Shown here: one piece after another, positions 1,603 to 64,000 of the stretch | Numbering within the stretch: the first letter of the stretch is position 1 | Layout: the number at the start of each line of letters is the position of its first letter | From: Mustelus asterias | Taxonomy: Eukaryota | Direction of reading: 5' to 3' | Assembly (NCBI RefSeq): GCF_964213995.1 | Contig: NC_135808.1 | Location: 34,472,001-34,536,000, forward strand | DNA length: 64,000 nucleotides | Notes under the pieces: model-generated | Seen by the model: the letters and a program-made list of their open reading frames with translations, nothing else | What the model was told of the DNA's origin: nothing | Database searches by the model: none | Translations under genes and position numbers: made by a program

Positions 1603-1667
1603 GAACTCCAGGAGAGAATGTCTCTCAGCAACAGATGACAACCTGGTGTTCTAAATTTCTATTGGTC
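1603..1667 (+). promoter_or_regulatory. MHC class II-type S-X-Y module
   Basis: X-box CTCAGCAACAGATG(AC) at 1624-1637, ATTGG at 1661 (23 nt after X, the HLA-DRA-type spacing), and possible S-box GAACTCC at 1603-1609. Confidence 0.7.
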
Positions 1668-17775: not shown

Positions 17776-17902
17776 GGAAAGTCCCAAGAACAGAAACCAG
17801 TGCTGCAGAGGCCAGAAATACAGGACACGCAACTACAAACCAAGTCAAAGCCCAAATTGGCCAATTAGAATTCAGCTTTCTGTAGGGTCAGCTGTCTCTG
17901 GG
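17776..17902 (-). promoter_or_regulatory. Inverted MHC class II-type X-Y module plus NF-kB site
   Basis: Minus strand: X CCCAGAGACAGCTG (17902-17889), 20-nt spacer, Y CTAATTGGCC (17868-17859), and GGGACTTTCC at 17785-17776. Confidence 0.75.
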
Positions 17903-18973: not shown

Positions 18974-19116
18974 GTGAGGGAGTGCTGCTCGGGCTGCAGT
19001 GGAGAGTGACAGTTGGTGTCTCAGTGAGGGAGTGCTGCTCGGGCTGCAGTGGAGAGTGACAGTTGGTGTCTCAGTGAGGGAGTGCTGCTCGGGCTGCAGT
19101 GGAGAGTGACAGTTGG
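18974..19116 (+). repeat. 50-bp tandem monomers in the CR1 5'UTR (~2.9 identical copies)
   Basis: gtgagggagtgctgctcgggctgcagtggagagtgacagttggtgtctca starts at 18974, 19024 and 19074. Confidence 0.95.
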
Positions 19117-19170
19117 GGAAGTGTGGGGAAGTTGTTTTTTTTTTTTTCTTTTCTTTTTTTCTTGCTGGTA

Positions 19171-20100: not shown

Positions 20101-20150
20101 TTCGGGGGGGGGGAGGGATCCTGAGTAGTGGGGCTGAAAGTGAGGGATGC

Positions 20151-32899: not shown

Positions 32900-33880
32900 G
32901 GTAAGCGAAAAACCGCACCGACCTCCTCAGAAGACAAACACGGGACATGGTGGACAGAGTACCCTTCGTTGTCCAGTACTTCCCCGGAGCGGAGAAGCGA
33001 CGACATCTTCTCCGGAGCCTTCAACATGTCACTGATGAAGACGGACATCTCGCCAAGGCCATCCCCACACCCCCACTTCTTGCCTTCCAGCAACCGCACA
33101 ACCTCAAACAGACCATTGTCCGCAGCAAACTTCCCAGCCTTCAGGAGAATAGTGACCACAACACCACACAACCCTGCCACAGCAACCTCTGCAAGACGTG
33201 CCGGATCATCAACACGGATGCCATCATCTCACGTGAGAACACCATGCACCAGGTACACGGTACATACACTTGCAACTCGGCCAACGTTGTCTACCTGATA
33301 TGCTGCAGGAAAGGATTTCCCGAGGCATGGTACATTGGGGAAACCATGCAGACGCTACGACAACGGATGAATGAACACCGCTCGACAATCACCAGGCAAG
33401 ACTGTTCTCTTCCTGTTGGGGAACACTTCAGCGGTCACGGGCATTCGGCCTCTGATCTTCGGGTAAGCATTCTCCAAGGCAGCCTTCACGACACACGATA
33501 GCGCAGAGTCGCTGAGCAGAAACTGATAGCCAAGTTCCGCACACATGAGGATGGCCTCAACCGGGATCTTGGGTTCATGTCACACTATCTGTAACCCCCA
33601 CGACTTGCCTGGGCTTGCAAAATCTCACTAACTGTCCTGGCTTTAACCTGTGCTTAACCCTCCCTCCACTCACATTGTCTGTACCTTTAAGACTTGATTA
33701 CCTGTAAAGACTCGCATTCCAACCATTATTTTGTAAATTGAGTTTGTGTCTTTATATACCCTGTTTGTGAACAGAACTCCCACTTACCTGACGAAGGAGC
33801 AGCGCTCCGAAAGCGAGTGGTTTGTGCTACCAAATAAACCTGTTGGACTTTAACCTGGTGTTGTGAGACTTCTTACTGTG
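32900..33880 (+). mobile_element. Penelope-like element 3' part: GIY-YIG endonuclease region and pLTR with hammerhead motif
   Basis: ORF 32947-33501 (CKTC…NVVYLICC…WYIGET…RQRMNEH) ends at a premature TAG compared with the 18596 copy. CTGACGA…GAAA at 33788-33812. Confidence 0.92.
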
Positions 33881-37174: not shown

Positions 37175-40100
37175 CCCAGCAACACACACTCCCCATACCC
37201 CCCACAGACCCCCAGCAACACACACTCCCCATACCCCCCACAGACCCCCAGCAACACACACTCCCCATACCCCCCACAGACCCCCAGCAACACACACTCC
37301 CAATACCCCCCACAGACCTCCAGCAACACACACTCCCCATACCCCCCACAGACCCCCAGCAACACACACTCCCCATACCCTCCCCCACAGACCCCCAGCA
37401 ACACACACTCCCCATAACCCCCCACATAGACCCCTAGCAACACACATACCCACACCCCCCCAACTGACCCCTCAGCAACACACACTCCACAAACACCCAC
37501 CCCACAGCCTTCCACCAACAGACACTCCCTTAACCCCCACACAGACCCCCCGTAACACACACACCCCATAACCCCCACACACCACCCCCACCAACACACA
37601 CTCCCATACCCCCCCCACACCGACCCTCAGCAACACACAATCCCCATAGCCCCCACAGACCCCCAAGCAGCATACAGTCCCCAAACGCAACCCAACAAAC
37701 CCCCAGCAACACACAGACCCCATACCGCCACCCCCACACACACCCAGCAACACACACACCCCATGCCCCCCCACAGACCCCCAGCAACACACACTCCCTA
37801 TACCCCCCACAGACCCCCAGCAACACACACTCCCTATACCCCCCACAGACCCCCAGCAACACACACTCCCTATACCCCCCACAGACCCCCAGCAACACAC
37901 AGACCCCATACCGCCACCCCCACACACACCCAGCAACACACACACCCCATGCCCCCCCACAGACCCCCAGCAACACACACTCCCTATACCCCCCACAGAC
38001 CCTCAGCAACACACGCTCGCCAAACTACCCCGCCCACACCCCCAGCAACACACACTCCACATACCCCCTCACACAGATCCACAGCAACACACACACCCCA
38101 TACTACCCCACACACACCCAGCAACACACACTGCCCACATCCTCCCCACATCCCGCAGCGACAGACACTCCCATATGCTCCCACACAGACCCCAGCAACA
38201 CACACTGCCCACATCCTCCCCACATCCCGCAGCGACAGACACTCCCATACGCTCCCACACAGACCCCAGCAACACACACTGCCCACATCCTCCCCACATC
38301 CCGCAGCGACAGACACTCCCATACGCTCCCACACAGACCCCAGCAACACACACTCACCATGCCACCCAACACACCTCCAGCAACACAGACTCCCCACACC
38401 CTCCCCACAGTCCCCAGCAGACACACTCCCTATACCCCCGACAGGCCCCCCAGCAACACATACTCTCCATACCCCCCCCCCCACACACACTCCCAGCAAC
38501 ACACACTCCCCGTACCCCCCCCCCCCACACACACTCCCAGCAACACACACTCCCCGTACCCTCCCCCACAGACCCCCCCAGCACACTCCCCATATGCCAC
38601 CCCTCCCCCCACACAGACCCCTCAGCAACACACACTCCCCAAACCACCCCGGCCACATCCCCCCACAACACACACTCCCGATACCCCCCACAAAGACCCC
38701 CAGCACTGCACACTTCCCATACCCTCCCCCACACACCCCCAGCAACACACACTCCCCATACCACCCCAATGGACCCCCCAGCAAAACACACTCCCCATGC
38801 CACCCAACACACCCCCAGCAACACACACTCCCCATAGCCCCCCACACACCCCAGCAACACACACTCCCCATAGCCCCCCACATACCCCAGCAACACACAC
38901 TCCCCATAGCCCCCTTTGCAGATCCACAGCAACACACACTCCCCATACCCACCACACAGACCTCCAGCAACACACACTCCCCACACCCCCAACACAGACA
39001 CACATACCCTCCCCCACACAGAGCCCCCACAGCAACACACACTCCCCATACTCCCCCACAGACCCCCCAGCAACACACACTCCCCATACTCCCCCACAGA
39101 CCCCCCAGCAACACACACTCCCTACACCCCCCCACACAGACACCCAGCGACACACACTCCCCAACAGACCCCCAGCAACACACACTCCCCAAACACACCC
39201 CAACAGACCCCCAGCAACACACACTCCCCATACCCCCTTCCCCACACAGACCCCCAGCAACACACACTCCCCATACCCCCTTCCCCACACAGACGCCAGC
39301 AACACACACACCCCATACCCCCCCCAACACAGACCCAGCAACACACACACCCTATACCCCACCCACGCACCCCAAGCAACACAACTCCCATATCCCCCCC
39401 CACACAAACCCCCAGCAACACACACTCCCCATACCCCTCCCCCAACAGATCCCACAGCAAAACACACTTCCGCATACCTCCCCCACACACCCCAAGCAAC
39501 ACAACTCCCCATACCCCCTCACATAAACCCCCAGCAACACACACTCATCACATCGCCCCCCACACAGACATCCAGCAACACACACTCCCCATACCCCCTC
39601 AATGGACCCTCCAGCAAAACACACCCCCCATGCCACCCAACACACCCCCAGCAACACACACTCCCCATAACCCCCCACACAGACACCCAGCAACACACAT
39701 TCCCCATACCGTGCTCCCCCCAACAGCCTCCCAGCAACATGGACCCCCCATACCCCACAAGAGACGCCCAGCAAAACACACTCCCCATATCTCCCCACAG
39801 ACCCCCCAGCAACTCACATTCCTCATACCCGCCCACACACCCCCAGCAACACACACTACCCATATGTTAGGGAACTTGTGTGTTGCAGGGGGTCTGTGTT
39901 GGGGGGTATGGGGAGTGTGTGTTGCTGGGGGTTTGTGTGGGGGGGGCTATGGGGATGTTAGGGAACTTGGGGAAATAAATAGTGATGTTTTGAGGAGTGT
40001 ACATCTTACAGAGAAGGAAGTGCTGGAAGTCTTAAAGCGCATCAAGGTAGATAAATCCACGGGACCTGATGAAGTGTATCCCAGGACATTGTGGGAGGCT

Positions 40101-42650
40101 AGGGAGGAAAATGCGGGTCCCCTAGCCGAGATATTTGAATCATCGATAGTCACGAGTGAGGTGCCTGAAGATTGGAGAGTGGCAAATCTTGTGCCTTTGT
40201 TTAAAAAGGGCTGCAGGGAAAAGCCTGGGAACTACAGGCCAGTGAGCCTCACATCTGTGGTGGGTAAGTTGTTGGAAGGTATTTTGAGAGATAGGATCTA
40301 CAGGCATTTAGAGACGCAAGGACTGATTAGGGACAGTCAGCATAGCTTTGTGAGTGGAAAATCATGTTTCACAAATCTGATTAAGTTTTTTGAAGGGGTA
40401 AACAAGAAGTTAGATGAGGGCAGTGCAGTTGATGTTGTGTATATGGACTTTAGCAAGGCCTTTGACAAGGTACCGCATGGTAGGTTGTTGCATAAGGTTA
40501 AATCTCATGGGATCCAGGGTGAGGTAACCAATTGGATACAAAATTGGCTTCTTGACAGAAGCCAGAGGGTGGTTGTAGAGGGTTATTTTTCAAACTGGAG
40601 GCCTGTAACCAGCGGTGTGTCTCAGGGATCAGTGCTGGGTCCACTGTTATTTGTCATTTATATTAATGACTTGGATGAGAATATAGGAGGCATGGCTAGT
40701 AAGTTTGCAGATGACACTAAGATTGGTGGCACAGTGGACAGTGAAGAAAGTTATTTCCAATTGCAACGGGATCTTGATCAATTGGGCCAGTGGGCTGACA
40801 AATGGCAGATGGAGTTTAATTTAGACAAATGTGAGGTGATGCATTTTGGGAGATTGAACCAGGGCAGGACTTACTCAGTTAATGAGAGGGCATTGGGGAG
40901 AGTTACAGAACAAAGAGATCTTGGGGTACATGTTCATAGCTCCTTGAAAGTGGAGTCACAGGTGGACAGAGTGGTGAAGAAGGCATTCAGCATGCTTGGT
41001 TTCATTGGTCAGAACATTGAATACAGGAGTTGGAATGTCTTGTTGAAGTTGTACAAGACATTAGTAAGGCCACACTTGGAATACTGTGTGCAATTCTGGT
41101 CACCCTATTATAGAAAGGATATTATTAAACTAGAAAAAGTGCAGAAAAGATTTACGAGGATGCTACCGGGACTTGATGGATTGCATTATAAGGAGAGGCT
41201 GGACAGATTGGGACTTATAGAGATCTATAAAATAATGAGTGGCACAGATCAGCTAGATAGTCAATATTTTTTCCCAAAGGTAGGGGAGTCTAAATCTAGA
41301 GGGCATAGGTTAAAGCTGAGAGGGGAGAGATACAAAAGTGTCCAGAGGGGCAATTTTCTCACACAGAGGGTGGTGAGTGTCTGGAACAAGCTGCCAGAGG
41401 TAGTAGTAGAGGCGGGTACAATTTTGTCTTTCAAAAAGGATTGAGACAGTTACATGGGTACGATGGGTATAGAGGGATATGGGCTAAATAGAGGCAATTG
41501 GGATGAGTTTAGGGGTTTTAAAAAAAAGGGCAGCATGGACAAGTTGGGCTGAAGGGCCTGTTTCCATGCTGTAAACCTCTATGACTCTATGATTCTATAT
41601 CCCCCCCACACACCCCCAGCAACACACGCTCTCCATACACCCCTCAACAGGCCCCCAGCAACACACGCTCTCCATACACCCCTCAACAGGCTCCCAGCAA
41701 CACAAACTCCCCACAACCCCCCAACAGATCCCCAGCAACACACACACACCCCATAGCCCCCCCAACAGACCCCCAACAACACACACTCCCCATGCACCCC
41801 CCAACACCACACAATCCCCATACCCCCCACACAGATCCCCAGCAACACACACTCCCCATACCCCCCCACAGACCCCCCTCTGCAACACATACTCCCCATA
41901 CCCCCCCACAGACCCCCAGCAGCACACACACCCCATAGCCCCCCCAACAGACCCCCCAACGACACACACTCCCCATGCAGCCCCCAACACACCACCAGCA
42001 ACACACAATCACCATACACCCCACACAGACCCCCAGAAACACACACTCCCCATACCCACCCAAACAGATCCCCAGCAACACACACTCCCCATACCCTCCC
42101 CCCCCACAGACCCCCCTCTGCAATACATACTCCCCATATCCCCCCCGCAGACCCCCAGCAGCACACACCCCCCATGCCCACCCACACAGACCCCCAGCAA
42201 CACACACTCCCCATACACCCCCACACAGACCCCCAGCAGCACACACCCCCCATGCCCACCCACACAGACCCCTAGCAACCACACATTCCCCATACCCACC
42301 CACACAGACCCCCAGAAACACGCACTCCCCATACCCTCACCAACAGACCCCCAGCAACACACTCCCCCATAACCCCCCTACACACCCCAAGCAACACAAC
42401 TCCCCATACACCCCCCACATACCCCCCCCCACAGAACCCCAGCAACAAACACTCCCCATACCCCTTGACACAGACCCCCAGCAACACACACTCCCCACAC
42501 CCCCCCAACAACACACACTCCTCATACCCTCCCACATCCCCCAACAACACACACTCCCTATACCTCCCCACACCCCACCAGCAACGCACACTCCTCATAC
42601 TCTGCCAAACAGACTCCCGGCAACACACACACCCCATAGACCCCCACAGC
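37175..42650. repeat. C/A-rich ~36-bp degenerate satellite (37175-39863 and 41598-42650), split by CR1
   Basis: Unit cagcaacacacactccccataccccccacagacccc. Confidence 0.95.
39955..41597 (+). mobile_element. CR1 5'-truncated copy, RT frame open to 41444
   Basis: KSTGPD, DFSKAFDKVPH, FADD and RPHLEYC; in-frame deletion of the FSLERRRLRGD segment; ctctatga-type tail. Confidence 0.93.
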
Positions 42651-43536
42651 CCCCCAGAATGGCAACGCAGGCACTCCTATTCCACCCCTCACACACACCC
42701 AGAGCCCGTGCAGTAGTGGCCCAGACAGCGCTGCTTGACAAGTGCTGAGGCTGCAGTGCTGCCAGTTCTGAGAGTTTCCAGCCCATCCCCCACCTGCAAC
42801 AGTGCTTGCTGCTGCCTGCACTAGGACCCAGAGTCAGCGCCAAGCCCCAAGGTTGGCACTCAGACCCGTGTCCGTGCCGAGAGGCCAAAGTCAGACCCAA
42901 TGAGCAACAAAAGCTCCCCATCCTCCTCACACACGCAGACCCCCACAACCTGAAATGCAACATGGCTGCCATGAAACAGTCCCCCCTTCCTTGAGCAGCA
43001 CGGAGCCATTTGAAAGCAGAGACCGACCTCCTTGCTCACTCTCTCTGCTTCAGCATCTGAATCCGACTTTTACACTTGGTGTTTTCTGGTTGCAGGTACA
43101 GCGAGTGAGGTTGTTAAGGAGGCGAGCTGGGCTGATTGGGAGTGAAGCTCGCTGTGATTAATGCAAAAAAATGCAAAATGGTGTTTCACCCATTTTGGAC
43201 GGGGTCCCAATCGCACCGATATCTTTTGGTAAAATGGGAATGGGCGTGAAAATGGGTACCATTCCCGCTAGTTCCAGCGCTTCCAATTTTATGACTTTTT
43301 TCCACCGCAAAATGGGTGCAATGATGTTGTAAAATTCTGTTCATCATGTTTAACAGAGGGCAATAACAGGGGCGCTCAGTCCAAAATGTAGATTGGGCAA
43401 TAAATCAGTGTCACAGACTGACTGGTATCATGACCTATCCACTCTGCACACCCGTCCTCCATAATATGGCAATTGATGTGGGCTATACTATAAATACTCC
43501 AGAACAACTCTCCTGCCCCCTGCCACCTTTACCCCA

Positions 43537-46099: not shown

Positions 46100-49000
46100 G
46101 CGGTCCTACAGTCAAATAACCACCTTGAGAGTTTCGTCTCTAAATGAGGCCACTGGCTGTTTTTTCAACCCGGCCTTTAACATCTGGACTGCTCTCTCCG
46201 CTCGCCAATTTGACACCGGGTGGTAAGGTGCCGTCTTGATGTGCTGGATCCCATTTGATTTCATAAATTTTGTGAACTCTAGGCTGGTGAACACTGAACC
46301 ATTATCGAAACTAATAGCTCTGGGATCCCGAGGTGTGCAGTTTCTCAACGGTTGCCATCGTGTTTGCCGAATTTAGTTTATAGACGTCTAACCACTTTGA
46401 ATGGGCATCTATTATCACCAGAAACATGGACCCCACAAACAGGCCTAGAAAATCGACATGGAGTTGTGACCATGGTCTACCTGGCCATTCCCATGGGTGC
46501 AGCAAGGCTGCCGGTGGTGCCATCTGCCCCTGTTGGCACTTCTGGCACTGTCCTACCAGTTTCGCTATGTCTGCGTCCAGATCTGGCCACCAGACGTAGC
46601 TCCTGGCCAGCATCTTCATTATTGATACTCCAGGGTGCCCATGGTGTAGTTCGGCCAGAATGGCCCGACAGCCCTGCCTTGGGACGATGACCCGTGCTCC
46701 CCACAGCAGGATCCCGTCTTCCACCGTGATCTGCTCCCTTCTGCTCCAGTATGGGTGGAACTGTGGATGGACCGGTCTTTCCAGCTGCCCTGTTAGCACC
46801 AGGTGCTTTACCTTCGCCAATACAGGGTCTTTCTGCGTCCACTGGCGTATATTGTGTGCATCCACTGGGAGGGTATCCGGAAAGTTTAATGTCATCACAG
46901 TCTCTTCCATTCTGGGTACCAATGGTGGGGTGTCCGGTAACGGTAGCCGGCTTAAGGCATCGGCATTTGCCACTCTAATCCCTGGTCGGTGTTCCGATCG
47001 ATACTGATATGCTGCCAGCAATAATGCCCAACGCTGGATCCGGGCTGACGCTATCGGCGGCACTGCTTTGTCTTCCTTCAGTGGGCCCAGCAAAGGTTTA
47101 TGATCTGTTACGATCATAAATTTTCACCCATATAAATACTGGTGAAATGTTTTGACTACAAAGACTGCCAGTCCTTCCTTTCCAATCTAGGCTTATCTTC
47201 GCTCTGCCATTGCCAGGGCCCTGGAGGCATACGCTATTGGCCGGTTTTGTCCGTTCTGCCACCTGTGTGCCAGGAATGCACCAACTCCATATGGGGACTC
47301 GTCACAGCTGAGTACCAATTCCTTATAATGTATCAATACATTTTTGGATGAGAGTTGCTGTTTAATTTTCTTGAAGGCCCTGTCCTGGTGGGCCGACCAT
47401 TCCCAAGTTTGTCCCTTTTTTAGCAGCTGGTGGAGGGGATCCAGAATGGAGGCCCTATTCTGTATGAATTTCCCGTAGTATGTTAGTCCTAAAAACGACC
47501 ATAGCTCCTGGATGGTTGTGGGAGCCGGGGCGTCTTTTATTGCTCGCACCCGATCCTCCAGAGGATGTAGGCCCGACTTATCCACTTTGTTCCTGAGAAA
47601 CGTTATTAGTTGTGCTAAAAAGACACATTTCTCCCTTTTCAAACGCACTCCCACTGCTACAAATCTCCTGAGAACTTCATCCAGATTCTGCAGATGTTCT
47701 GCCCTTGTTTTACCCGTAATGAGGATATCGTCTAGGTAAATAGCAACCTGTGGTAACCCCTGGAGGATGCTCTCCATGGTCCTTTGGAATATGGTACAAA
47801 CTGACGAAAATCAAAAGGCAATGTTTTATACTGGAAGAGGCCTTTCAGGGTATTTATTGTGGTGAATTTTTGCGAATCCTCGTTCTGCCCTAGTTGCAGG
47901 TATGCGTGGCTCATGTCCAGTTTTGTGAATAGGAGTCCTCCTGCCAACTTTGCGTACAGGTCCTCAATCCTGGGAATTGGGTATTTGTCTAGCTGAGAGT
48001 AACGATTTATCATCTGTTTGAAATTGCAGCAAAGGTGCACTGAGCCATCCAGCTTTAAGATAGGAACCACAGGTGCCGCCCATTCTGCGAACTGGACCGG
48101 TTTTATTATTCCTTCGTGCAGTAATCTTTTGATTTAAGAATCAACCTTTTCCCAGAACGCAAAAGGTACCAGTCGGGCTTTGCAAAACTTTGGGACAGGC
48201 TCCGGGTCGACGGGCAATTTTGCCTTGATTCCTTTGATTGTTCCTCGGCCTTCCCGAAAAATCTCCGGATATTTGTTCAGGGCCTCACTCAGGCGACCAT
48301 TTTCCAGCTGGAAGATATTTGTCCAATCTAGCTGGACCTCTTTTAGCCAATTTCGCCCTAATAGGTCCCGAACCTTCCACTACCATTAATGGGAGCCTAA
48401 CTAATTGCTTCCCGTATGCAACTGGCACATGGGTTGTACCCATCACTTTCAGTGGTTCCCCCGTATAGGCCCTCAGCCTTGCCAAAGTTTTGGTCAGGGC
48501 TAAGAGTTGTAGTATCTTGTTAAACACTGTCTCCCAGTGATCGATACGGCTGCGCCTGTGTCGACCTCCATTAAAATTGGACGTCCATTCAGTCTCACTG
48601 ACAATTTGATGAGTTCTGACTTTGTCATTGCTACGCACTGTAGCTGTTCCTCATCAGAGGTAGGGGGAGCTTCCAGGTTGTGCATTCTCCTGTCCCTTGA
48701 CCTACGTGTTCTTTTTGGCCATGTTGGTTTAGGAACATTGCTTTTCCTCTGTGCCTCCAAACACTGGCAACCATCGCAATGTTGTGTTGGGCGGGGCTCT
48801 ACAAGAACTGCTGTCACTCTGGGCTTAACCTGACCTTGTCTAGGTGCGGTTCTACAGGTGGACGTGGGCTCCCTTGTATCCGAATCCTGCCGGAGGGCTG
48901 CTATGTTGTGGCCTGCCCCGTAGTGGTAGTCCCCTAACCTAGTCTCCCTGGTGTTGGCCTCTACCTCCATCGGATTACCCTGGAGCTCATGCACTCTGCT

Positions 49001-49503
49001 TGCCACTTTTTCTAATGACAAGGCCAGCTGTAATGCCTGTTTACAGTCCAGCTGGGCCTCCGCTAACAGGCATTTCTGTACAGTCATATCATTAATTCCG
49101 CACACCAATCGGTCTTGGAGCATCTCATTTAGTGTCTCCCCCTGCATTCGCAAGTCTCCGCCGGACATCTTAGCCTCGTTAGGAAACTGATGATTGACTC
49201 CCCCGCTGCTCTAAATGTGGAATAAAAACGGTGCCTCCTCAGGATCAGGGTTGGCTTAGGGTCATAATATTCTTGAACTAAGTCTGACAACTCTTGGAAG
49301 GACTTTGTGTCCGGTGCCTCCGGGAAAGTTAAAGTGCGCATAATTGCAAAAGCTGCTGGTCCACAGGCAGTCAGCAAGATAACCCTTTGCTTCTCATCTG
49401 AGGTCATGTCGTTTGCCCTGAGGAAATACTTCATCCTTTCCACATATTGGGCCCAGTCCTCCACTGTGGGGACAAAAGAGTCCAACTTCCCAAATAGCGG
49501 CAT
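46100..49503 (-). pseudogene. Gypsy gag-pol pseudogene
   Basis: MPLFGKLDSF…EDWAQYVER (gag), MEVDTGAAVS, FTKLDMSHAYLQ, IYLDDILI, TDHKPL, HHGHPG…CQKC, DNGSVF…YHP. Confidence 0.9.
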
Positions 49504-49573
49504 GTTTTCCCAACAATGGCTTACCCTCAATATGTGCGGTGGTTCAGCAAGTTCCTTCAGGTCACTCCTTTTT

Positions 49574-49584
49574 CCTCGTCGCCA
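49574..49584 (-). other. Primer-binding site TGGCGACGAGG, complementary to the tRNA-Ser(GCU) 3' end
   Basis: Lies 1 nt inside the 5' LTR end. The tRNA assignment comes from the recalled vertebrate tRNA-Ser-GCT 3' end …CCTCGTCGCCA. Confidence 0.8.
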
Positions 49585-49769
49585 CTGAAATAACTCCATG
49601 GAAGGGGAGAGTCCCATCACCAAGTTACTTTATTTACAAACTATAATAAATATACAGAGCTTGCACTCCCGATAGCTTCCTGCTATGGCAGGCTAAGGGA
49701 CTGTCACATCTGCTTTAAATAGGGAGCATGAGGCTCCCTGATTGGACATCAATGAGAACTCATCAGGTA

Positions 49770-53300: not shown

Positions 53301-54211
53301 CCCAGTGTGTGACAGTAATGGCAGGTTTTGTAGATAAGACAGGGCTGGCAATAAACAACGACACAGCTGCTGAAGTTTTATTGCCAAGATCAAAGGGTAA
53401 AATAAACATGTGTCCTTACCTTTATCTCAAGGTTTGACCTGAGTTGAGAAGGAGGGGGTTTTGGGAAGACCTGAGGACAGAGATAGTGGCTGTCAAGCAA
53501 AAAAGCAAAATCCCAAACACAAAATTGTGACATTTTAAACATCTTGCCTTCTTGCCTTAACCTGATTCCTCTGTCAGCAGCATCTTCTGGAGAGGGAAAA
53601 GAAGGAAATGGGAAAAATAGAGATTTCCAGATATTTGTTGGGATTCCATCCTGATTTTTATCCCAATATCACAGGGCATGTTAATTGTATATTAACTGGG
53701 TGTTTAATTGAATTCTGGTACTGGGTATTAACTGGGGATTTACCTGTGCCCATAGAATATACATTGAGCAGGTAGGAGGTATATGTCTGCAATCTATAGC
53801 TCTGTACGTAAATAGTTTTATATATAGGAGCAGACTGAATGTGGTTGTTGAGATTGTAGGTAGGTACTTGATATGTAATATGTTTCTCTGTAAATTAAAG
53901 CTTGGAAGTGTATATCTCACATGTCAGTGCAGACTTGATGGGCCGAAAGGCCTCTTCTGCACTTTGTGATTCTGTAATTAGGCTCCTCACCTCCACCTGG
54001 CTGTCTGAACCTCCTGAGGAAGGATTCTGATCAATATCGATGACAGGTCATCATGAAAGAAATCATTAACCCCACTTCTCTCTCCACAGAGGCTGCCTGA
54101 CCTTTTGAGTATTTCCAACATTTTCTGTTTTATTTCTGATAAATACTGGTACATGAAGCAGAATATATATAAAGAAAGATCACTCCCTCTACTGGCCAGC
54201 GATCTTTCTTT

Positions 54212-54563
54212 AGGGGCAGCACAGTGGTTAGCACTGCTGCCTCACAGCACCATGGACAGAGGTTCGATTCTGACCTTGGGTGACTGTGTGGAGTTTGCAC
54301 TTTCTCCCCGTTTCTGAGTGGGTTTCCTCTGCGTGCTCTGATTTCCTCCCACATTCCAAAAATGTGCAGGTTAGGTAGATTGGCCATGCTAAATTGCCCT
54401 TTAGTGTCCACAGATGTGCAGGTTAGGTAGATTAACCATGGGAAATGTGAGGGGTTACGGGGCTAGGACAGGGAGGGTGGGACTGGGTAGGATGCTCTTT
54501 TGGAGAGTCGGTGCAGATTCGATGGGCCGAATGGCCTCCTGTACTATAGGGATTATATTCTAT
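54212..54563 (+). mobile_element. HE1-like V-SINE
   Basis: gcacagtggttagcactgctgcctcacagc head, core and CR1-like tail. Confidence 0.88.
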
Positions 54564-54784: not shown

Positions 54785-54827
54785 CCCAGAAACAGCTGAT
54801 GGAGGAAATCTGAATTTCTGATTGGTT
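54785..54827 (+). promoter_or_regulatory. MHC class II proximal promoter X-Y module
   Basis: X CCCAGAAACAGCTG (54785-54798), 19-nt spacer, Y CTGATTGGTT (54818-54827), ending 132 nt upstream of a Kozak ATG. Confidence 0.88.
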
Positions 54828-54959
54828 TATTAACGCTAAACCACATGTCAATCACAGAGTGATATTTCAGTGAGTGAGATAGAAACTTGACTGAATTCAG
54901 ACACTGACAGCAAACTGAGAGGAGCTGGGATCAGAATTGGGAGAAACAAGAGGATCACA

Positions 54960-55026
54960 ATGGAAGTTGGGACACACTTTACTGTGTTGCTGCTGGTTTT
55001 GATTCATGGAGCCTGGGCTGTGAAAT
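54960..55026 (+). CDS. Exon 1 (leader peptide) of a probable MHC class II alpha chain gene; remaining exons not found in the window
   Basis: acaATGg start; MEVGTHFTVLLLVLIHGAWAVK hydrophobic signal peptide; phase-1 donor T|GTGAGT at 55027. Resembles my recollection of the nurse shark class II alpha leader (ME…F.VL.LVLIQGGWA), which is unverified. Confidence 0.8.
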
Positions 55027-55399
55027 GTGAGTTATGAAACAGTAAATAGTTTCTAAATATTAATCTCTGATTTCACTGGACTCCGTGTGGTGTTATTACA
55101 GGAAGTGTTAATTGTATATTAATTGAGTGTTTAATTAAATTCTGGTACTGGGGATTTACCTGTGTTTATAATATACATTGAACAGGTAGAGGGTATCTGT
55201 CTGTAATCTAAAGTTCTGTAAATAAATAGTTTTATATATAGCAGCAGACTGATGTGGTTGTTGGTATTGTAGGTGGATACACAAATGCAATGTGTGTCTC
55301 TGTAAATAAAAGCTTATAATGAATAATAATTCTGCTTCAATTCTATCCTTCACCACCTGGCAATCTGAATTATAATCTGCATAGTGTGTGTTACATTTA

Positions 55400-57250
55400 T
55401 TTTGTATTTCAACAAACACAACTTGCATTTATATAGTGCCTCTTACTGCCTGAAGGCATTTTACTTGAGCTAATCAGACAAAACTTGATCCACGAAGGAA
55501 TTGCTTCAAGGGATGGCTTGCTTGGTGAAATAACTGATTTTAAATAAGTTTCTTAAAGGGGGAGAGTTCAGAGAGAGAATTTGAAAGTTTACGATCGAGA
55601 TACCTAAAGCCATTTCCACCAATGGTGGTGTGTGAGAGAGCAGAGGAATGCAGAGTGATCGGAGGACTGTAAAACTGAGCCTGGGAAAGTGAGGCCACAA
55701 ATAAATTTCAACATGATGAGAATTTTAAACTTGAGGCATTGCCAGATTGGGAGCGAATACAGATCATTGAGCACAGAAACAGGACTGGGTGTGAGTATGG
55801 ATGTAGGTAGCAGAGTTTCGGATGATTTCAAATTAATGAAGGGTGGAAGATCGGTAATTAGTTAAGGAAGCAATAGAACAGCCGAGTCAAAGGGTAACTG
55901 GTGCATGGAGGAGGGATTCAGCAACAGATAGCATGAAGCATGAGATTTCACAGAGGTTAAAGAGGCAATCTCAGTGATGGAGGGCGAATGGAGTTGGAAA
56001 CTCACCTCTGGGTCATCTGGTCACCGAGGTTATAAGCAGTCTGGTTCAACCTCAGTGAGTGACCAGGGAGGGAAATGGAATGGTTACTTGGAGACTAAAG
56101 ACAATGGTTTGATCTTCTGAATATTTATTTGGAAGGTATTTCTGCTCACTAGCACTGGATATTGGACAATGTGACAAATCAGATAGTGGAGGGGTCAGAA
56201 GTGTGATGGCGAGGCAGAGCTGGGTGTTATTAACTACAGGTGAAAACTCAAGGCAGAGTTTTGGATGATGTCACTGAGGAGCAGAGCTTGGATGTGAAAC
56301 AGGAGGGAGACAAGAATAAATCACATAGAATTACACAGAATAATACAGCACGGAATCCAGGCATTCCACCAAACCGGAACATTCCAGAGTTTATATTCCA
56401 CCTCAGATCAACCTCCTCATCCCAATTCCCTTTTCCACCATGTCCATATCTAACTTCCCTGAAATACATCCACACCATTCACTACAGCCACATCTTAGAT
56501 AACAGTGAGAGCAGAGAGAGAAACCAATGAGGAGCTCTGGCCACAGTTAAATATAGAACCAGGTGAGAGCAGTCGCACCCAGCTGGGTGACAAGGAAGAG
56601 CTATTGGAGGAGGATGGAGTGGTGTTAATCATGTGAATCAATCATGGATTGAGAAGGTGAGCTGAGGGGGACAGGAACCCCGCAGAGAGCAGAAGCACCG
56701 AGAAGGATGAGGAGGGAAAGTTCATTTTTGTCACAGTCAAATACGATATTGTTTGCGGACTTTGATAAGAATCATCTCAGTACTGTGAGAGAACCCGACT
56801 GGAAAAGGGTCGGGGGGTGTTTTTTGAAGGTGATGACATAATTTAAATAGAGAGGGACAACATCTGGAGAGAATGAACGGTGAACAATATCGGCAAACAT
56901 GGGGAGCAGGAGGGGAAGTTGGGTGATTCAGTGAGAATAGGGTTGAGGGAACAGGAGGTAGATCTCATGGACAAGGTGAGCTCAGAGAGGACATGAGGGG
57001 AGACAGGAGAGAAGATGTGAGTTCAGGGCTCAGCCAGGGGGGAACATTAATGGAAGTTTATCCGGGCAAGTTAGTGAAAGGGAGGGAAGTGGCAGAGGCA
57101 GCTGATGGGAAGGTAATAATCTTAGTGACAAAGGAATCCTTGAGCTCCTCTCACTTGTTGGAGGTGAGGGTGGAGGAGACCGGTGGGGGGAGGGGGGGGG
57201 TGCGGTGGTTGCAGGGAGGCAGTGACAGGGTTAAGAAGTTTGCAGCAGAA
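55400..57250 (-). mobile_element. Highly decayed L2-like LINE
   Basis: L2-type tail caacttgcatttatatagtgcc, and SPVSVLNDLYSLPIWQCLKFKIL resembling the L2 'TPVL..LHWLPV..RI.FK' motif. Confidence 0.6.
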
Positions 57251-58270
57251 AAAAAGAAGCCTGAAGGTAATTTACAATTAGACTCAGGCAGAAGTGAAAC
57301 AGTTTGGAGGAATTAGGAGATTGGGGTGGGGGCAGGGTGGTGGAATCGGAAATCTGGGCAGATTCAGGAGGACTGGCTGGGAGAAACAATGGAGGGTGTC
57401 GGGAGATTGTGGGGGGAGGGGTATTGGGTGGGGGAGGGGTTATGCAGTGGGAGAAGGGGTATAGGGTGGGGGTGGGATGGGGGAGAGGCGTGTCCAGAGT
57501 TGTAACATCAGTGGAGTGGTGGGAAAGGGGACACAGAGGTCAGGACTGCAGGGAACCGGGAGGCCGGGTTTTAGGGGAGTCGGGAGGGTGAGTGGAAAAT
57601 TGACAAGTAGGTGGGAATGGGAGACTGGGAAATGCTGCACGGATTGGACACAGCAGCTTCCATGGAGATGGGAGCAATAAAAACAACAAATAAATGGTGA
57701 GTGGAAATGGGACAGAAAGAAGCAGCCATTAAGAGAGAGAGAGAGAGGAAAGGGAAGAATAGGTGAGTCAGAGAGGAGAAGAGTGCAAAGGGGAGGAAGG
57801 AGAGACAGAGAGAGAAGCAGAGTAAACAGGAGAGAGGGAGAGACAGAGGAGCAGAAAGTAAAGGGGGAGAGGGAGGGACAGTGGGAGAAGAGTATAGAGT
57901 TAAGTGGAGACCGGGAGAGACACAAAGGCCTAGATTTTCAGAGTCATGGAGAATCAGTGAATTATCCTAAGTGGCAGAAGGAGTCCAGATCAGGAGATGT
58001 TAATACGGGATGTGTACAATCTACACAATGAAAATATCGCTGCCCTCAGTGTGTCAGGAACAAATCTGTGGAGTTGTAATGAAAATTTGAGATTCTTGAA
58101 AACCTGGAGTCTTTGCTTGGCCTGAAGATGTCAGAATCACCATGGAAATCCTTGACCCATCATTTCTGTGTAAAGGTCAAACGGGGGTCTTCAGTTTGTC
58201 ACATCTGTCCCAATATTGGCCGCTACAGTAAGCTGCAAACATTACTCTTTGCAGAATTTGACTCAAACGC

Positions 58271-60543
58271 TGGGCACGATTTTCCTGCTACGCTACTCTG
58301 GTCGAATAGCTTAGTAGGGTTGGAAATGTAAGCGGAAAACGAGGGGTGGGATTCTCCCAAGGAAATTCTAAGTTCGAATTTGCATAAAACTGGAGTAAAT
58401 CACACTGGTTATTTCAGCGGGATTTTCAAAATGAATCTCCCACACTACACTACAGAGTGCACTAGCGTGAGTGCACTAACGTGAATCATACTAAAAATCC
58501 AGAGCGGGCCGATTCCCACTGGAGAGACCGGCAGCACAGCGCTGAAAGGGCTACTGCACTGATCTGTCGGTGCCAAGATTGGCGCAAGCACAGTAGCCCC
58601 CACTGTCGGCCTCCCAATCGCTGTCCAGCCCTGCGACCCAGCATCGTTGGCCATGTGACGCCCCACCACCCAATCACTGGCCTCCCAGATGTGGCTGGCC
58701 CAGCCTCATCCCACTCCCACTCCCGGCCCACTTCGATTTACCCCCACCCCCTACACCGGCAGCTGATCTCCCAACCCCATGCTGCCCTTGGCAGCCCCGA
58801 CTCCCCTCCCCACCTGCAGTCCCAACACCACCCCCGTAGCCCCGGGCCCCCCGGCGTGCAGACCCCACCTCCCATCCCGATGTCCAGCCCCAATCACTGG
58901 CCTCCCTCCCTCTGTCACTGATCCCATTGCAGAGTGGCAGCGGGATCCCCAACACCTATGAGGCCCTGTCCCTATGGACCCCCCCCTTTCTGGCTTCACC
59001 CCCTTGGCACTGCCCAAAGCCAGGTGGGCAGTGCCAATGTGCCCCCTGGGCATTGCCACTTTGCCACCAAGGAGCCAGGCTGGCACTGCCAAACTGGCAA
59101 TGCCCAGGGGTCACCCCCATTACCCCTGACCTCCTGGGGGGCCTCCATGGTCCCTCTTCTCTCCAGCGGACTTCCACATTGACTTTATAAATACCTGATA
59201 TAGCATCTTTCACGTCCTTGGATATATAATACTATGCCTTGAAGAAATATATTTTTATCATGTTTGTATTTTTATCATGTTTCTTGTAAGGGGTATGTTT
59301 AAAATTCAGCTCTTTCATACGATGCCGATTTGTCTGCACCTGGCAGCTCACATGCTGAGAATGCAGGCTAATGATTGATTTTAGCTCGGGATGTGTTTGT
59401 TTTAATCTAAGTTAATGCATTTTTGTTTATTTTGGTTTTTCTCCTTGGGTTTCTGAGTTGGGTTTTGATTAGATTGATTGACAGCGGGGTCAGGCCACCA
59501 GCTCCCAGCAAGTGGGGAGCTGTTGTAAACCCTGCTGGAGTGAAACACTCCTGGCAGCGAGTGGGAGGCGGGGGGGGGGGGGTGAGGCTAGTGGGCCCAG
59601 AGACTTCAGTCCCAGGTCCGCTAATCACATTTAAATTGTATTGAAATCAGCATTATCATAAATTATTCAGCTCCACGCTGGTTTCTGGTGTAGTGCTGAT
59701 GAGACGGGAAATCTGGTGGGCGGAGACGCAGGGAGGCCGTGGCACCCAGCGTGAGGCCCACTACACAACCTCCACTTGAGACTCCCAGTCCATGGACTGG
59801 GAGAATCGCCCCTTAAAATTCGAATTCTCGTCTGATGGTCAGCAGGCTGCAAAGCTCCCGGGCCTTTTTATTTTGCCAGGAACAGTGCAAGGCTGATTTA
59901 AATATGCATTTCCTCAATTAAATCCTTTTAGCAAGCTCCAGACGCTATTGTCCGGACACACTTGGCTCTCCAACCTCGCCAGTGGAGTTCATACCAGTGG
60001 GGATCACAGAGACCCAGCAACAGAGACCAGACATGATGGCCCTGTTGGTGAGACCGGAGCCATTGACACCACCTGGGAAGTCAGGGACATGGGCTGGGGG
60101 AGGGGCGAGGGCAGTGCCACTTGGGCACAGCCAGCCTGGGACCCCGGCAGTGCTATCCTGGCAGTGCCCAATGTAGTACCCTGGCACTGCCCGCCTGGCA
60201 GTGTCCAAGGGGTGAGTCCTGAGGGGGCGGGACCTCACGGGGGCACGGGGGTTGGGATCAGCCATTATAGGTCGATGCCGACAAGCAGAGATCAGGGCCA
60301 GCCATTGGGAGGCCGGTGGTCAGGGGGATCGGAGAGTGGATGTGGCCCCCTGAGCACTCTGCTGCTGGCCTCTCCACTGGGTTTAAGCTCTGCCACCCCC
60401 ACTACTGGCGTGAATCACCTGGTGGCCTGTGTATTGCACAGAGTGCCGTAAATTCATGAAACTTAGCTCACCCAAAAAACAGGCACGTAAACCTCCCGTG
60501 TTCCCTCACGTTAGACACTTTGATTTTTTGGCGGAAAATCGCC
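58271..60543. mobile_element. Cluster of non-autonomous Harbinger-like elements
   Basis: Ends gggcacgattttcc (58271), gggtgggattctccc (~58344), gagaatcgccc (~59811) and gaaaatcgccc (~60543); GC-rich bodies like 14488-15488. Confidence 0.65.
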
Positions 60544-60599
60544 CTCCCCCATGTAAGATTTCCCTGTGTAAGTACATCACTCAACAGATCAAAACAACC

Positions 60600-61800
60600 A
60601 GATTCTAAACCTTCACTGAAGTGTTGTGGAGTCGTCACTCCCACAAAGATGTTTGTGTATAGACTCGATCTGCCATGGGCATATCTAGATCTACAGCTGC
60701 CTCTCTCGTCACACACATGCCCATGTGTTGCAAGGCACTGGTGCTTTAAATCAGCTTAACAACATTCCCAATGTCAAACATTACCTCAGGCTCCCACCAT
60801 TGCTCAAGATGGTTTATTCATTGTGTTCAGGATGAGGGAATGCACTATCATTCCATGTACTGTTCTGGAAAGCCTTATAGTGACTCTCTACCTATGTCTA
60901 GTTCACCATCATGTCAGCTACTCCAATTGGTCACACACAATATTTCTGTGTGGCCGATATGGCTGCCTCCATTGATTGGATTACAGATAGCTGTCATATT
61001 CACACTGGTCTCCAGACCATGCCACACACTATTGTACCTCAGTCTCTGACATTCCAGAGGTGCTTGACATCTTATCTGCCGCTGAAGCAATGGCCCATTT
61101 TGGTTGTATGAGAATGTGTCACTTACAACATTGTCAATGAACAACACAACCTGGGAGGGATGCTCTCCTCCAGCTGTGCACTGGGTTTCATCCATCGGGT
61201 GGTCTGAGGAGACACAGTGCTTCAGGAACACCACATTGCGATTGAGTTTGGGAGACCAGACAACCCCAATGAGAACCCAATAGCAGAGACGGCAGTATGG
61301 GAACTGGAAGACGAGCCTCTATGTCAAGAATGGAGGTCCTATCACATCTTTGGCTCTGTCTACCTCGACTGCTCGGCTCAAACCCTTCCTCTATTCCCAA
61401 GGCCTTTCTGCGAGAGACTTATGGAGAGAATGAATCAAGTTCATCAATCCACAGATTTTCCTGTCCAGTGACAGGGTTATTAGGATTCAGCATTAGCTCC
61501 CACTGATCAGAAATCTAAGGCCCATTCTAGGAGTGCACCCAGCACTCATCTCGGTTAACGTTAGTGATTTGGTCTACCTTCATGCTGACGACAACACGTC
61601 ACAGGCTCACCAATGCTATTTGGTTATCTCTGCCGATGATGGCTGGGTCAATATGCCCAAGTTTATTAGTTCCCAGCCACATAGCACAACTTATCAAGAC
61701 AAGAGATCTGAATGCTCCCTCCTTCCTGCTCTGTGATCGGCTCCATGTCTGACTATACCAGCCACAGTGAAAGCTCCCATCCATCAGGCCTGTCCTACGA
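60600..61800 (+). mobile_element. Decayed LTR-retrotransposon integrase region
   Basis: HHIAIEFGRPDNPNENPIAETAVWELEDE resembles the integrase-core segment carrying the catalytic Glu; many stops. Confidence 0.45.
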
Positions 61801-62098
61801 ATGTCTAACATACTGACTGAGCTTCTACACTTTCCACAGCTCCAGTGCTGTCAACTACAGGGTCAACTATGTAAGCTTCACAGCCTACAGTAGATCCCTG
61901 GATCGTGCCCAGTCAACTGACTTTGGGACAGCATCTCAATACAGAGATGCTGATACCTGGTCTGGTTTTTATCACTTATCCAGTTTTCTGGTCCCCAACA
62001 CAGGCCTTGATCTAATGCAGCCATCTGATTCAATCTTGCAGCCCCTGATCCTATATCACTGGACTTTCACACCTAGCAAACCATCTACCATCTCCCAA

Positions 62099-64000
62099 GG
62101 GTGGTGTAGTTGTATTGTCGCTGGACTAGACCCAGGGTAATGCTCTGGGGACCTGGGTTCAAATCGCACCACAGCAGATAATAAATTCAATTCAATAAAA
62201 AAATCTGGAATTAAAAGTGTAATGGTGACCATAAACCATTGCCAAAGTCACTTATGCCCTAAAACCTACCATTTGGTGACTAGGTAAGGACAGTATTGTG
62301 ATTGAGTCTTAAATGGCCGAGCAAGACATTCAGTTGTATCCAACCACAGAAAGTCGACCAAATGGAATGAAACTGGACCTGAGCACCAGAAATGACAATG
62401 GCAACAAACATCTGTGGGCTTGTGCCAAAGCTGGGAGAGCTGTCTCACAGACTAGTCACACACACAGAATCATAGACAATGTGCCAGACATCACGGTATG
62501 TTCACCAGCAGCACTCACCCAATAGAGCTGGCAGCGCGGGGTATACAGTCAGGAGGAAGTTGTCAAGTTTAACCATATCCCATGAGATCAGAGTGAATGG
62601 ACCCCATGAGGTGCCATGGCATAAGAGGAAGAAAAGCGCATGCTGTTTGCCACATATATCACCCCCACCTCCAGCTGATGAATCAGTACTCCTCCATGGC
62701 AACAAGGGTGCAGAATGTGGCTTGGTAGCACCATTATAATCCTAAAGACTAGATCTTCAGCAGGTGGTGAGGGAAACAACAAGAGGGAAAAACATACCTG
62801 ACCTCATCCTCATCAACCAGCCTGCCACAGATGCATCTGTCCCTGACAGTATCGGTAAGAGTGACCACCGCACAGTCCTTGTGGAGACAAAGTCACATCT
62901 TCATTTTGAGGATATCCTCTATCGTGTTGTGTGACACTATTGCCATTCTAAATGGGACAGACTTCAAACAGATCGAGCAACTCGAGACAGGGTAACTGCA
63001 GCATCCAGCCACGAATGGTGGTGGACAATTAAACAACTCACTGGTGAAGGAGAAAGCTCCACAAAGGAGCCCAGAACATCAGTGCAAAAGATAAGGCTGA
63101 AGCATTCGCAACAATCTTCAGCCAGAACTGCCAAGTGGATGATGCATCTTGGCCTCTTCCTGTGGTCCCCAACATCACAGATGTGAGTCTCCAGTCAATT
63201 TGATTCACATTATGTGATATCAAGAAATGGCTGAAGGTACTGGATACTGCAAAGGTTATGGACCATATTCTGGCAAAAGATTTGTGCTCCAGAACTTGCC
63301 ACACCCTAGCTAAAGTGTTCCAGTACAGTTACAATACTGTCATCTACCCAACAATGTGGAAAATTGCCCAGGTATGTCCTCTGCACAAAAAGCAGGACAA
63401 ATCCAACCCAACCAATTACCATGCTATCAGTCTACTCTCGATCATCAGTAAAGTGATGGAAGTGGTCATCGACAGTGCTATCAAGCAGCACCTGCTCAGC
63501 AATAAAGTCACCAAAATCCCAGATGACCATAGGCTGTGACTGGTGGTAGTTTAATCTGAGGATCACCACACATTAGGCGAGGGGCAAGGTTGCAAAGGCG
63601 GGGCCTTCTTGAATAACCTCAGCCGTTACAGGAGTTGAACCCACTCTGTTGGTATCGCTTTGCATCACAAACCAGCTTCCAGCCAACTGAACTAAAGTGA
63701 CCCCCTTAGCTCAGCAATAAGCTGCTCAATGATGCTCAGTTTGGGTTCCTCCAGGGTCACTCAACTCTTGACCTCATTACAGCCTTGGTTCAAACATGGA
63801 CAAAAGAGCTGAATTCAGAGGTGAGGTGAGAGTGACTGCCCATGACGTCAAGGCTGCATTTGACTGAGTGTGGCATCAAACTGGAGTCAATGGGAATCAG
63901 GGGGAAAACCCTCTGCTGATTGTAGTTATTGGCACAAAGGAAGATGGTTGTGGTAGTTGGAAGTCAATCATCTCAGTCCCAGGATCTCTCCGCAGGAGTC
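62099..64000 (+). mobile_element. Decayed CR1/L2-group LINE with tRNA-like 5' head and no evident ORF1; runs off the window
   Basis: Head ggtggtgtagttgtattgtcgctggactag…gggttcaaatc; APE start NICGLVPKLGEL near 62408; SIGKSDH near 62849; RT-proximal WKIAQVCPLHKK…NYHAISLLS. Confidence 0.8.
63506..63708 (-). mobile_element. tRNA-derived SINE (another family)
   Basis: Minus strand ttagttcagttggctgg…gggttcaactcc; 12-bp TSD GCTCAGCAATAA (63494-63505, 63709-63720). Confidence 0.8.

What the first reader, a model, noticed from the sequence alone, without database searches (positions are those of the whole stretch)
54785..55032. Hidden host gene: shark MHC class II (probably alpha) promoter and leader exon
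Seen: X box, 19-nt spacer, Y box, Kozak ATG, a 22-codon signal peptide and a phase-1 GTGAGT donor, all missed by the ORF track. Known: MHC leaders are encoded by a separate phase-1 exon, and the X and Y boxes closely match mammalian class II promoters such as HLA-DQB (recalled as CCCAGAGACAGATG…CTGATTGGTT). Inference: class II alpha, based on leader resemblance from memory. Intron 1 would exceed 8.9 kb, since I found no alpha-1 exon in the window.
Basis: partly seen in the sequence, partly recalled or inferred. Interest (0 to 1): 0.78.

Follow-up and report, generated by a model that had tools for sequence, protein, structure and literature searches.

The report
Shark MHC class II alpha promoter
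This is the on-switch and first exon of an ordinary, already catalogued shark immune gene; the only fresh point is that several more copies of the same mammal-like switch sit between the neighbouring genes and may act as long-range enhancers.

Summary
Window 54785-55032 holds an X box, a 19-nt spacer, a Y box (inverted CCAAT), a strong-context ATG and a 67-nt phase-1 leader exon. The other three exons lie 15-60 kb further on, outside the window. Spliced, they give an intact 247-aa classical MHC class II alpha chain, identical to a protein NCBI already lists (P0049, XP_078073906.1). The gene sits in a duplicated alpha-beta block about 0.7 Mb from beta-2-microglobulin. The X-Y motif is not chance: 0 of 100 window shuffles gave it, and both beta promoters carry it in unrelated flanking DNA. 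Binding by RFX, NF-Y and CIITA is inferred from mammals; no RNA run was available and the trans factors were not tested. By-product: three further, mutually unrelated X-20-Y modules lie in the 94 kb between the upstream beta gene and this promoter (two in the window, at 1624 and 17902), with no leader exon found beside them. They resemble the distal enhancers of the human class II locus. My literature searches found no description of shark X-Y modules, but the library is incomplete.

The parts
54785..54798 (+). X1 box of the proximal promoter (RFX site by analogy); the following bases overlap an X2-like TGA half-site
   Evidence: identical in the paralogous alpha promoter and in the dead third copy
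54799..54817 (+). 19-nt X-Y spacer (20 nt in the beta promoters and the intergenic modules)
54818..54827 (+). Y box, inverted CCAAT (NF-Y site by analogy); ends 132 nt before the ATG
   Evidence: Y as inverted CCAAT per PMC7866136; 92-152 nt to gene start in bat class II genes per PMC5437515
54581..54871 (+). Low-copy promoter island shared by three places in the genome (this gene, paralog B, dead copy C)
54960..55026 (+). Coding part of exon 1: leader, 22 codons + 1 nt (phase 1)
55027..64000 (+). Start of intron 1 (donor GTGAGT 55027-55032); 15,233 nt in all, ending at G000:C8:34542259. Exons 2-4 lie outside the window at C8:34542260-34542508, 34565026-34565307 and 34586875-34587020 (stop included)
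1624..1667 (+). Intergenic X-20-Y module, 53 kb upstream; candidate distal enhancer
   Evidence: matrix score 19.8, chance 0.019 per 64-kb window; 2 copies genome-wide, both in the class II region
17859..17902 (-). Intergenic inverted X-20-Y module, 37 kb upstream; candidate distal enhancer
   Evidence: matrix score 21.1, chance 0.006 per window; 3 copies genome-wide, all at C8:34.5-34.9 Mb
54213..54560 (+). Very high-copy interspersed repeat just upstream of the promoter island (SINE-like; label recalled, edges approximate)
   Evidence: depth up to 1e7 against about 30-60 in the promoter and exon

Best explanation
The stretch is the proximal promoter and leader exon of an intact four-exon classical MHC class II alpha gene of a carcharhiniform shark (probably DBA lineage). 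Shown: gene structure, open frame, protein identity, position in a duplicated alpha-beta block near beta-2-microglobulin, and an X-Y module shared with both beta genes. Inferred from the mammalian system: RFX binds X, a CREB-type factor X2, NF-Y binds Y; this platform recruits CIITA, which starts transcription some 50-100 nt downstream and so co-ordinates alpha and beta chain synthesis in antigen-presenting cells. The leader exon sends the chain into the endoplasmic reticulum; exons 2-4 give the peptide-binding alpha-1, the C1 alpha-2 and the membrane anchor.
For: MHC_II_alpha exon 6.3 kb past the window. 247 aa, all junctions GT-AG phase 1, ungapped: 227 of 247 identical to P0004, 166 of 247 to nurse shark P0021; identical to NCBI P0049; Pfam MHC_II_alpha + C1-set over cut-off. 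Landmarks of PMC8010645 met: no Cys in alpha-1, H5/D27, D29/E30, N69, N-glycan at alpha-78 (the carcharhiniform position), C107/C163, C195, G198, G202, G209. Two Logan proteins from 1.1-kb contigs show the same leader joined to alpha-1 in relatives (P0005, P0006). Against paralog B, differences pile up in alpha-1 (about 16 non-synonymous, 2 synonymous) and not in the anchor exon (0 and 1) (small counts, no test made). X-Y module upstream of both beta leaders and a weaker X-21-Y 245 nt before the beta-2-microglobulin ATG (score 15.4, chance 0.0013 per 500 nt).
Against: No S-box-like heptamer at the 16-nt spacing upstream of X in the alpha or beta promoters, and that stretch varies among the three alpha copies (S consensus recalled). 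G205 is Ser (as in nurse shark). No X-Y module near the candidate invariant-chain (CD74) first exon in 80 kb scanned, although mammalian CD74 has one. NCBI also lists a 219-aa isoform without this leader (P0048). In salmon and zebrafish interferon-gamma induction of class II was attributed to IRF1, not the enhanceosome (PMC7573153 passages). CIITA and RFX genes were not searched for in this genome.
Confidence: 0.9

Rival explanations
1. The gene is real, but the X-Y module is largely vestigial and expression is driven by other elements (IRF1/ISRE-type) as reported for teleosts.
For: Teleost results in PMC7573153; no canonical S box; no module at the CD74 candidate.
Against: X and Y are kept with 19-20 nt spacing at alpha and beta promoters whose flanks are unrelated, which drift would not preserve; 20 of 32 genome-wide matches lie in two MHC stretches of C8.
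Confidence: 0.07
2. The copy is intact but silent, or is mainly transcribed from another first exon.
For: Recent duplicate of paralog B (promoter 98% identical); NCBI lists a leaderless isoform.
Against: No stop or frameshift, all splice sites canonical; amino-acid changes concentrated in the peptide-binding domain.
Confidence: 0.03
3. The leader belongs to a class II beta, DM-like, W-type or non-MHC gene.
For: The X-Y motif alone does not tell alpha from beta.
Against: Leader aligns to residues 1-20 of shark alpha chains; beta leaders are 34 codons and unrelated; spliced product identical to an annotated alpha chain; DM is reported absent from cartilaginous fish.
Confidence: 0.005
4. For the side finding: the three intergenic X-Y modules are leftovers of promoters of deleted class II genes, or chance, and do nothing now.
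For: The region shows gene birth and death: a dead alpha copy and a broken third beta. A 74%-identical third copy of the 17902 module has lost both boxes (score 10.7), and its recent duplicate carries a change in X. An off-MHC pattern match also scores 23.8 (L121).
Against: Flanks show no similarity to alpha or beta promoters or leaders (18 comparisons, best z 2.1); no hydrophobic leader exon found in 900 nt downstream; all three keep a 20-nt spacer and TGAC after X although unrelated to each other; background rate about 12 per 3.68 Gb gives about 0.0003 expected in 94 kb, and the module at C8:34459677 was found without having shaped the pattern.
Confidence: 0.4

Closest known systems
Elasmobranch classical MHC class II alpha (DBA lineage; PMC8010645), NCBI protein XP_078073906.1 (P0049)
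   Same: Identical protein; four exons; H-alpha-5 as in DBA; alpha-beta pairs near beta-2-microglobulin as in PMC10751288.
   Different: None at protein level. Lineage rests on one residue; my alpha-2 tree did not resolve DAA from DBA.
Mammalian W/S-X1-X2-Y module bound by RFX, CREB, NF-Y and CIITA (PMC7866136, PMC2677874)
   Same: X then inverted CCAAT, same orientation as the gene, fixed spacing, about 130 nt before the ATG, present at alpha and beta genes.
   Different: No clear S box at 16 nt in the shark class II promoters; alpha spacer 19 nt against 20 in beta; the beta promoters carry 10-11 extra CCAAT boxes; none found at the CD74 candidate; binding untested.
Distal S'-Y' enhancers and XL elements of the human class II locus (as described in PMC7866136 and PMC2677874)
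   Same: Promoter-like modules away from any gene, in both orientations, spread through the class II region.
   Different: Here 37-67 kb from the next promoter (the HLA-DRA one is at -2.3 kb); no occupancy or enhancer data; no sequence orthology shown.

Membership tests
Classical MHC class II alpha | Alpha-1 peptide-binding domain without disulfide | tested here: met
   PF00993 E 1.5e-13 over cut-off; Cys only at 128, 184, 215
Classical MHC class II alpha | One C1-set domain with C107/C163 | tested here: met
   PF07654 E 5e-21
Classical MHC class II alpha | Transmembrane C195 and glycine packing motif, short tail | tested here: met
   C195, G198, G202, G209 present; 205 is Ser as in nurse shark
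Classical MHC class II alpha | Separate phase-1 leader exon and intact four-exon frame | tested here: met
Classical MHC class II alpha | Linked beta gene in the MHC | tested here: met
   Beta leaders at C8:34419821 and 34674973, beta-2-microglobulin-like exon at 33794741, class I arrays on the same contig
Classical MHC class II alpha | Allelic polymorphism and expression in antigen-presenting cells | not testable with these tools
   Only three DNA-like runs from one study were listed
Shark DBA lineage | His at alpha-5 and clustering of the alpha-2 domain with DBA | tested here: inconclusive
   His present (diagnostic); tree of 18 rows had 12 of 15 inner branches open
W/S-X-Y module | X box upstream of Y in gene orientation with fixed spacing | tested here: met
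   19 nt (alpha), 20 nt (beta) with a 14-nt X; papers give 17-18 or 20-22 nt by their own box limits; the X consensus itself is recalled
W/S-X-Y module | Y box = inverted CCAAT | tested here: met
   54818-54827; definition
W/S-X-Y module | S box about 16 nt upstream of X | tested here: inconclusive
   Nothing S-like at 16 nt in alpha or beta promoters; judged by eye against a recalled consensus; PMC5437515 reports 1-25 nt spacings
W/S-X-Y module | Binding by RFX, CREB, NF-Y and recruitment of CIITA | not testable with these tools
   Needs EMSA, ChIP or reporter assays
W/S-X-Y module | CIITA, RFX5, RFXAP, RFXANK genes in the genome | not tested
   No search was made for them
Distal class II enhancers (S'-Y'/XL) | X-Y module away from a gene start inside the class II region | tested here: met
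Distal class II enhancers (S'-Y'/XL) | Factor occupancy and enhancer activity | not testable with these tools
   No chromatin data

The most novel reading that the evidence does not exclude
Sharks already control the class II locus as mammals do: besides the proximal X-Y promoters, a set of intergenic X-Y modules (three unrelated ones between each beta gene and what follows it, plus the well-kept promoter of a dead alpha gene, plus two families in the class I-like region) act as RFX/NF-Y/CIITA-bound distal enhancers. Long-range enhanceosome control of MHC would then date from the jawed-vertebrate ancestor, and the IRF1-led control reported in teleosts would be derived.
Probability: 0.45. Interest if true: 0.55.

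Novelty: new member of a known kind. Interest (0 to 1): 0.3.

Why it matters
The gene itself adds nothing: it is annotated and its family is well described in sharks. The regulatory side has some value. It gives exact coordinates for testing whether the RFX/NF-Y/CIITA switch, and its long-range enhancers, were in place about 450 million years ago, a point left open by fish studies that credit IRF1. A 14+8 nt pattern picks out the MHC in a 3.7-Gb genome (20 of 32 matches), so it is also a practical handle for finding shark MHC regulatory elements.

Tried and rejected
RNA evidence: no RNA holder listed; the three runs laid behaved as genomic DNA and showed no splice joint; this says nothing on expression. 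One low-depth contig of run X3 carried promoter variants of both copy B and copy C, too weak to use. PF00969 found no beta exon (0 of 6 candidates); a shark beta protein did. Rfam: 0 matches in the window. Mammalian X/Y sequences from print: PMC2191754 was listed but the held text lacks them and no supplement could be read, so the X and S consensus remain recalled. Literature on shark X-Y modules: searches gave 0 papers; searches listed none on shark promoters by title or start of abstract; 'promoter' occurs 0 times in PMC10751288, PMC6795676 and PMC9992475. Subscription journals and older nurse-shark papers are not in the library, so this is not proof of absence. Earlier scan findings: none. 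Alpha-2 tree: unresolved. Idea that intergenic modules are transposon parts: rejected, 2-3 copies each, with the caveat that the search skips very common words. Idea that copy C drives another gene: rejected, a decayed alpha leader follows it. Idea that the class I-region modules are class I promoters: no leader exon found beside them; left open.

Full report
Observation. The window is G000:C8:34472001-34536000 of a 3.68-Gb genome, rich in retroelements. At 54785-55032 the sequence shows, in order, a 14-nt X box, 19 nt, a Y box (inverted CCAAT), 132 nt, an ATG with A at -3 and G at +4, 22 codons of hydrophobic leader plus one base, and GTGAGT. A strict X-Y pattern occurs once in the window and in 0 of 100 shuffles. 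That pattern was built from this site and the beta promoters, so the better test is recurrence in unrelated DNA, given below.

The gene. Pfam MHC_II_alpha gave 2 matches of 2 candidates in the genome, one 6.3 kb past the window end. That exon matched shark class II alpha chains at 62-85% (18 of 124 candidates) and 99 solved sequences, the 60 shown all class II chains. Searching 164 kb (window plus 100 kb) found all four exons in order. The longest GT-AG combination gives exons of 67, 249, 282 and 146 nt, introns of 15,233, 22,517 and 21,567 nt, all phase 1, a 247-aa frame without stop or gap, and AATAAA 281 nt after the stop. The product is identical to P0049, NCBI XP_078073906.1, named a class II alpha chain of a Mustelus species. 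NCBI also lists a 219-aa isoform that starts inside alpha-1 (P0048). So the gene is hidden only from the window's ORF track. It meets the landmarks listed for chondrichthyan class II alpha in PMC8010645 (Results section and figure legends read): no alpha-1 cysteine, H5/D27, D29/E30, N69, glycan site at alpha-78, C107/C163, C195, G198, G202, G209; position 205 is Ser. His-5 points to the DBA lineage, but an 18-row alpha-2 tree left 12 of 15 inner branches open.

Neighbourhood. On C8, all on the + strand: a beta-2-microglobulin-like exon at 33.795 Mb (name from recall of the sequence, Pfam gives C1-set), a dead alpha copy C at 33.909, alpha B at 34.250-34.301, beta at 34.420-34.433, this gene at 34.527-34.587, beta at 34.675-34.696 and a broken beta at 34.778. 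This fits the 1-4 alpha and beta copies linked to beta-2-microglobulin in PMC10751288 (passages) and the catshark layout in PMC9992475 (passages). Paralog B encodes P0004 exactly. Between A and B, alpha-1 has about 16 non-synonymous and 2 synonymous differences (pN 0.084, pS 0.035), alpha-2 has 5 and 2, the anchor exon 0 and 1: the pattern of a working peptide-binding chain, on small counts and untested.

The promoter. Both beta genes carry X-20-Y 406 nt before their ATG, in flanks unrelated to the alpha promoter (z -0.4 and 0.0). Beta-2-microglobulin has a weaker X-21-Y 245 nt before its ATG (score 15.4; chance 0.0013 per 500 nt). The strict pattern gave 16 genome-wide matches, 8 on C8, control 0. 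In mammals the module has fixed order, orientation and spacing and binds RFX, CREB and NF-Y, which recruit CIITA (PMC7866136, passages); it lies 50-100 nt before the start site (PMC2677874, passages) and ends 92-152 nt before the gene start in bats (PMC5437515, passages). That the shark module works so is inference. Against a full match: no S-like heptamer at 16 nt in the class II promoters (spacing from PMC4374748, passages; consensus recalled); no module near the candidate CD74 first exon at C16:11027629 in 80 kb scanned with a matrix that demands ATTGG; and teleost work that credits IRF1 (PMC7573153, passages). The trans factors were not searched for. No RNA run was listed.

Intergenic modules. 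A matrix trained on three promoters (alpha A and both betas) found two more modules in the window, at 17902 (minus, score 21.1) and 1624 (plus, 19.8); the best scores in 130 kb downstream of the alpha and beta genes were 11-12. An order-4 Markov null gives 0.006 and 0.019 per window; it ignores repeats and paralogy. Both are low-copy, with duplicates about 265 kb on, behind the second beta gene. A relaxed pattern, fitted to include them, gave 32 matches: 10 in the class II region, 10 at 41.07-43.37 Mb among class I-like exons, 12 scattered on eight other contigs, control 1. Collapsing duplicates, the class II ten are five families and the class I-region ten are two. One family (34459677 and 34727388, score 24.8) had not shaped the pattern; taking the 12 scattered matches as background, about 0.0003 are expected in the 94-kb interval. 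The three intergenic modules share no flank with each other or with alpha or beta promoters, all have a 20-nt spacer and TGAC after X, and no hydrophobic leader exon was found behind them. Human class II has such distal modules, bound by RFX and CIITA. Against function: a 74%-identical third copy of the 17902 module at 34.884 Mb has lost both boxes, its recent duplicate has one change in X, and an off-MHC match scores 23.8. I put enhancer function at 0.45.

Copy C. Its 292-nt promoter is 96.6% identical to this one (4 differences in 265 nt, against 5 for A-B), yet the 5' leader region behind it is only 68% identical, frameshifted and without a donor, and is cut off by a 1,560-nt insert with inverted ends. 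No exons 2-4 were found in the 60 kb fetched or genome-wide. Recent gene conversion is the simplest cause; selection as an enhancer is not excluded.

Novelty and verdict. The gene is known and annotated. The X-Y promoter is a known kind of element; seven searches (listings and starts of abstracts only) turned up no description in cartilaginous fish, but the library lacks most subscription and older papers, and figures and supplements of the papers read were not seen. Also seen in passages only: PMC1351924, PMC6155461, PMC6795676; PMC2191754 gave no passage. Verdict: observation confirmed, interpretation supported, interest 0.3, carried mostly by the intergenic modules.

Noticed in passing
L052 1410-1760 and L053 1560-1910 (G000:C8:34.4194 and 34.6746 Mb): Both class II beta promoters carry 10-11 further inverted CCAAT boxes between the Y box and the ATG, spaced 22-49 nt apart; the alpha promoter has none of this array.
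   Followed up: partly
G000:C8:41075578-43373612 (L111-L120): Ten X-20-Y modules in two families among class I-like exons; each has an S-like heptamer 16 nt upstream of X (consensus recalled); no leader exon found next to them, nearest class I exon 10 kb or more away.
   Followed up: partly
G000:C8:33908661-33911759 (L029, L030): Dead alpha copy: near-identical promoter, 1,560-nt insert with inverted ends, leader exon decayed to 68%; suggests gene conversion of the promoter.
   Followed up: yes
G000:C8:33792938 (L055): X-21-Y-like module and a second Y box upstream of the beta-2-microglobulin leader exon.
   Followed up: partly
G000:C8:34777995-34783450: Third class II beta remnant: beta-2 exon matched in two pieces (frameshift likely) and an anchor exon; no beta-1 exon or X-Y module found in 30 kb.
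   Followed up: partly
G000:C6:95819991, C15:18624341, C25:3381491, C1:11240211, C3:27427610: Scattered class II beta-like pieces at 53-72% identity; those on C6 and C15 run across the beta-1/beta-2 exon border, so are probably processed retrocopies.
   Followed up: no
G000:C16:11027629 and 11044340 (L081, L075): Candidate invariant chain (CD74): trimer-domain exon (Pfam E 1.4e-5) and a likely first exon with an NF-kB-like site (motif recalled) about 165 nt upstream, but no X-Y module.
   Followed up: partly
window 53667-53903: 81%-identical copy of intron-1 sequence 55094-55315 just upstream of the promoter; depth suggests a low-copy repeat.
   Followed up: partly
window 35382-36158 and 37175-42657: Long tandem arrays (29-nt and 37-39-nt units), the second interrupted by a LINE fragment at about 39.9-41.4 kb.
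   Followed up: no
window 19078-22970, 24677-25219, 32905-33501, 46311-49629: A LINE with two long open frames (964-aa endonuclease-RT), LTR-retrotransposon integrase fragments and a GIY-YIG (Penelope-like) fragment.
   Followed up: partly
G000:C8:50.17-51.09 Mb and C4:58.99-59.83 Mb: An array of over 20 near-identical C1-set exons on C8, and a cluster of C1 exons about 30-35% identical to class II alpha and beta on C4 (possibly W-type genes; guess).
   Followed up: no
P0048: NCBI lists a 219-aa isoform of this gene that lacks the leader and starts at a Met inside alpha-1.
   Followed up: no
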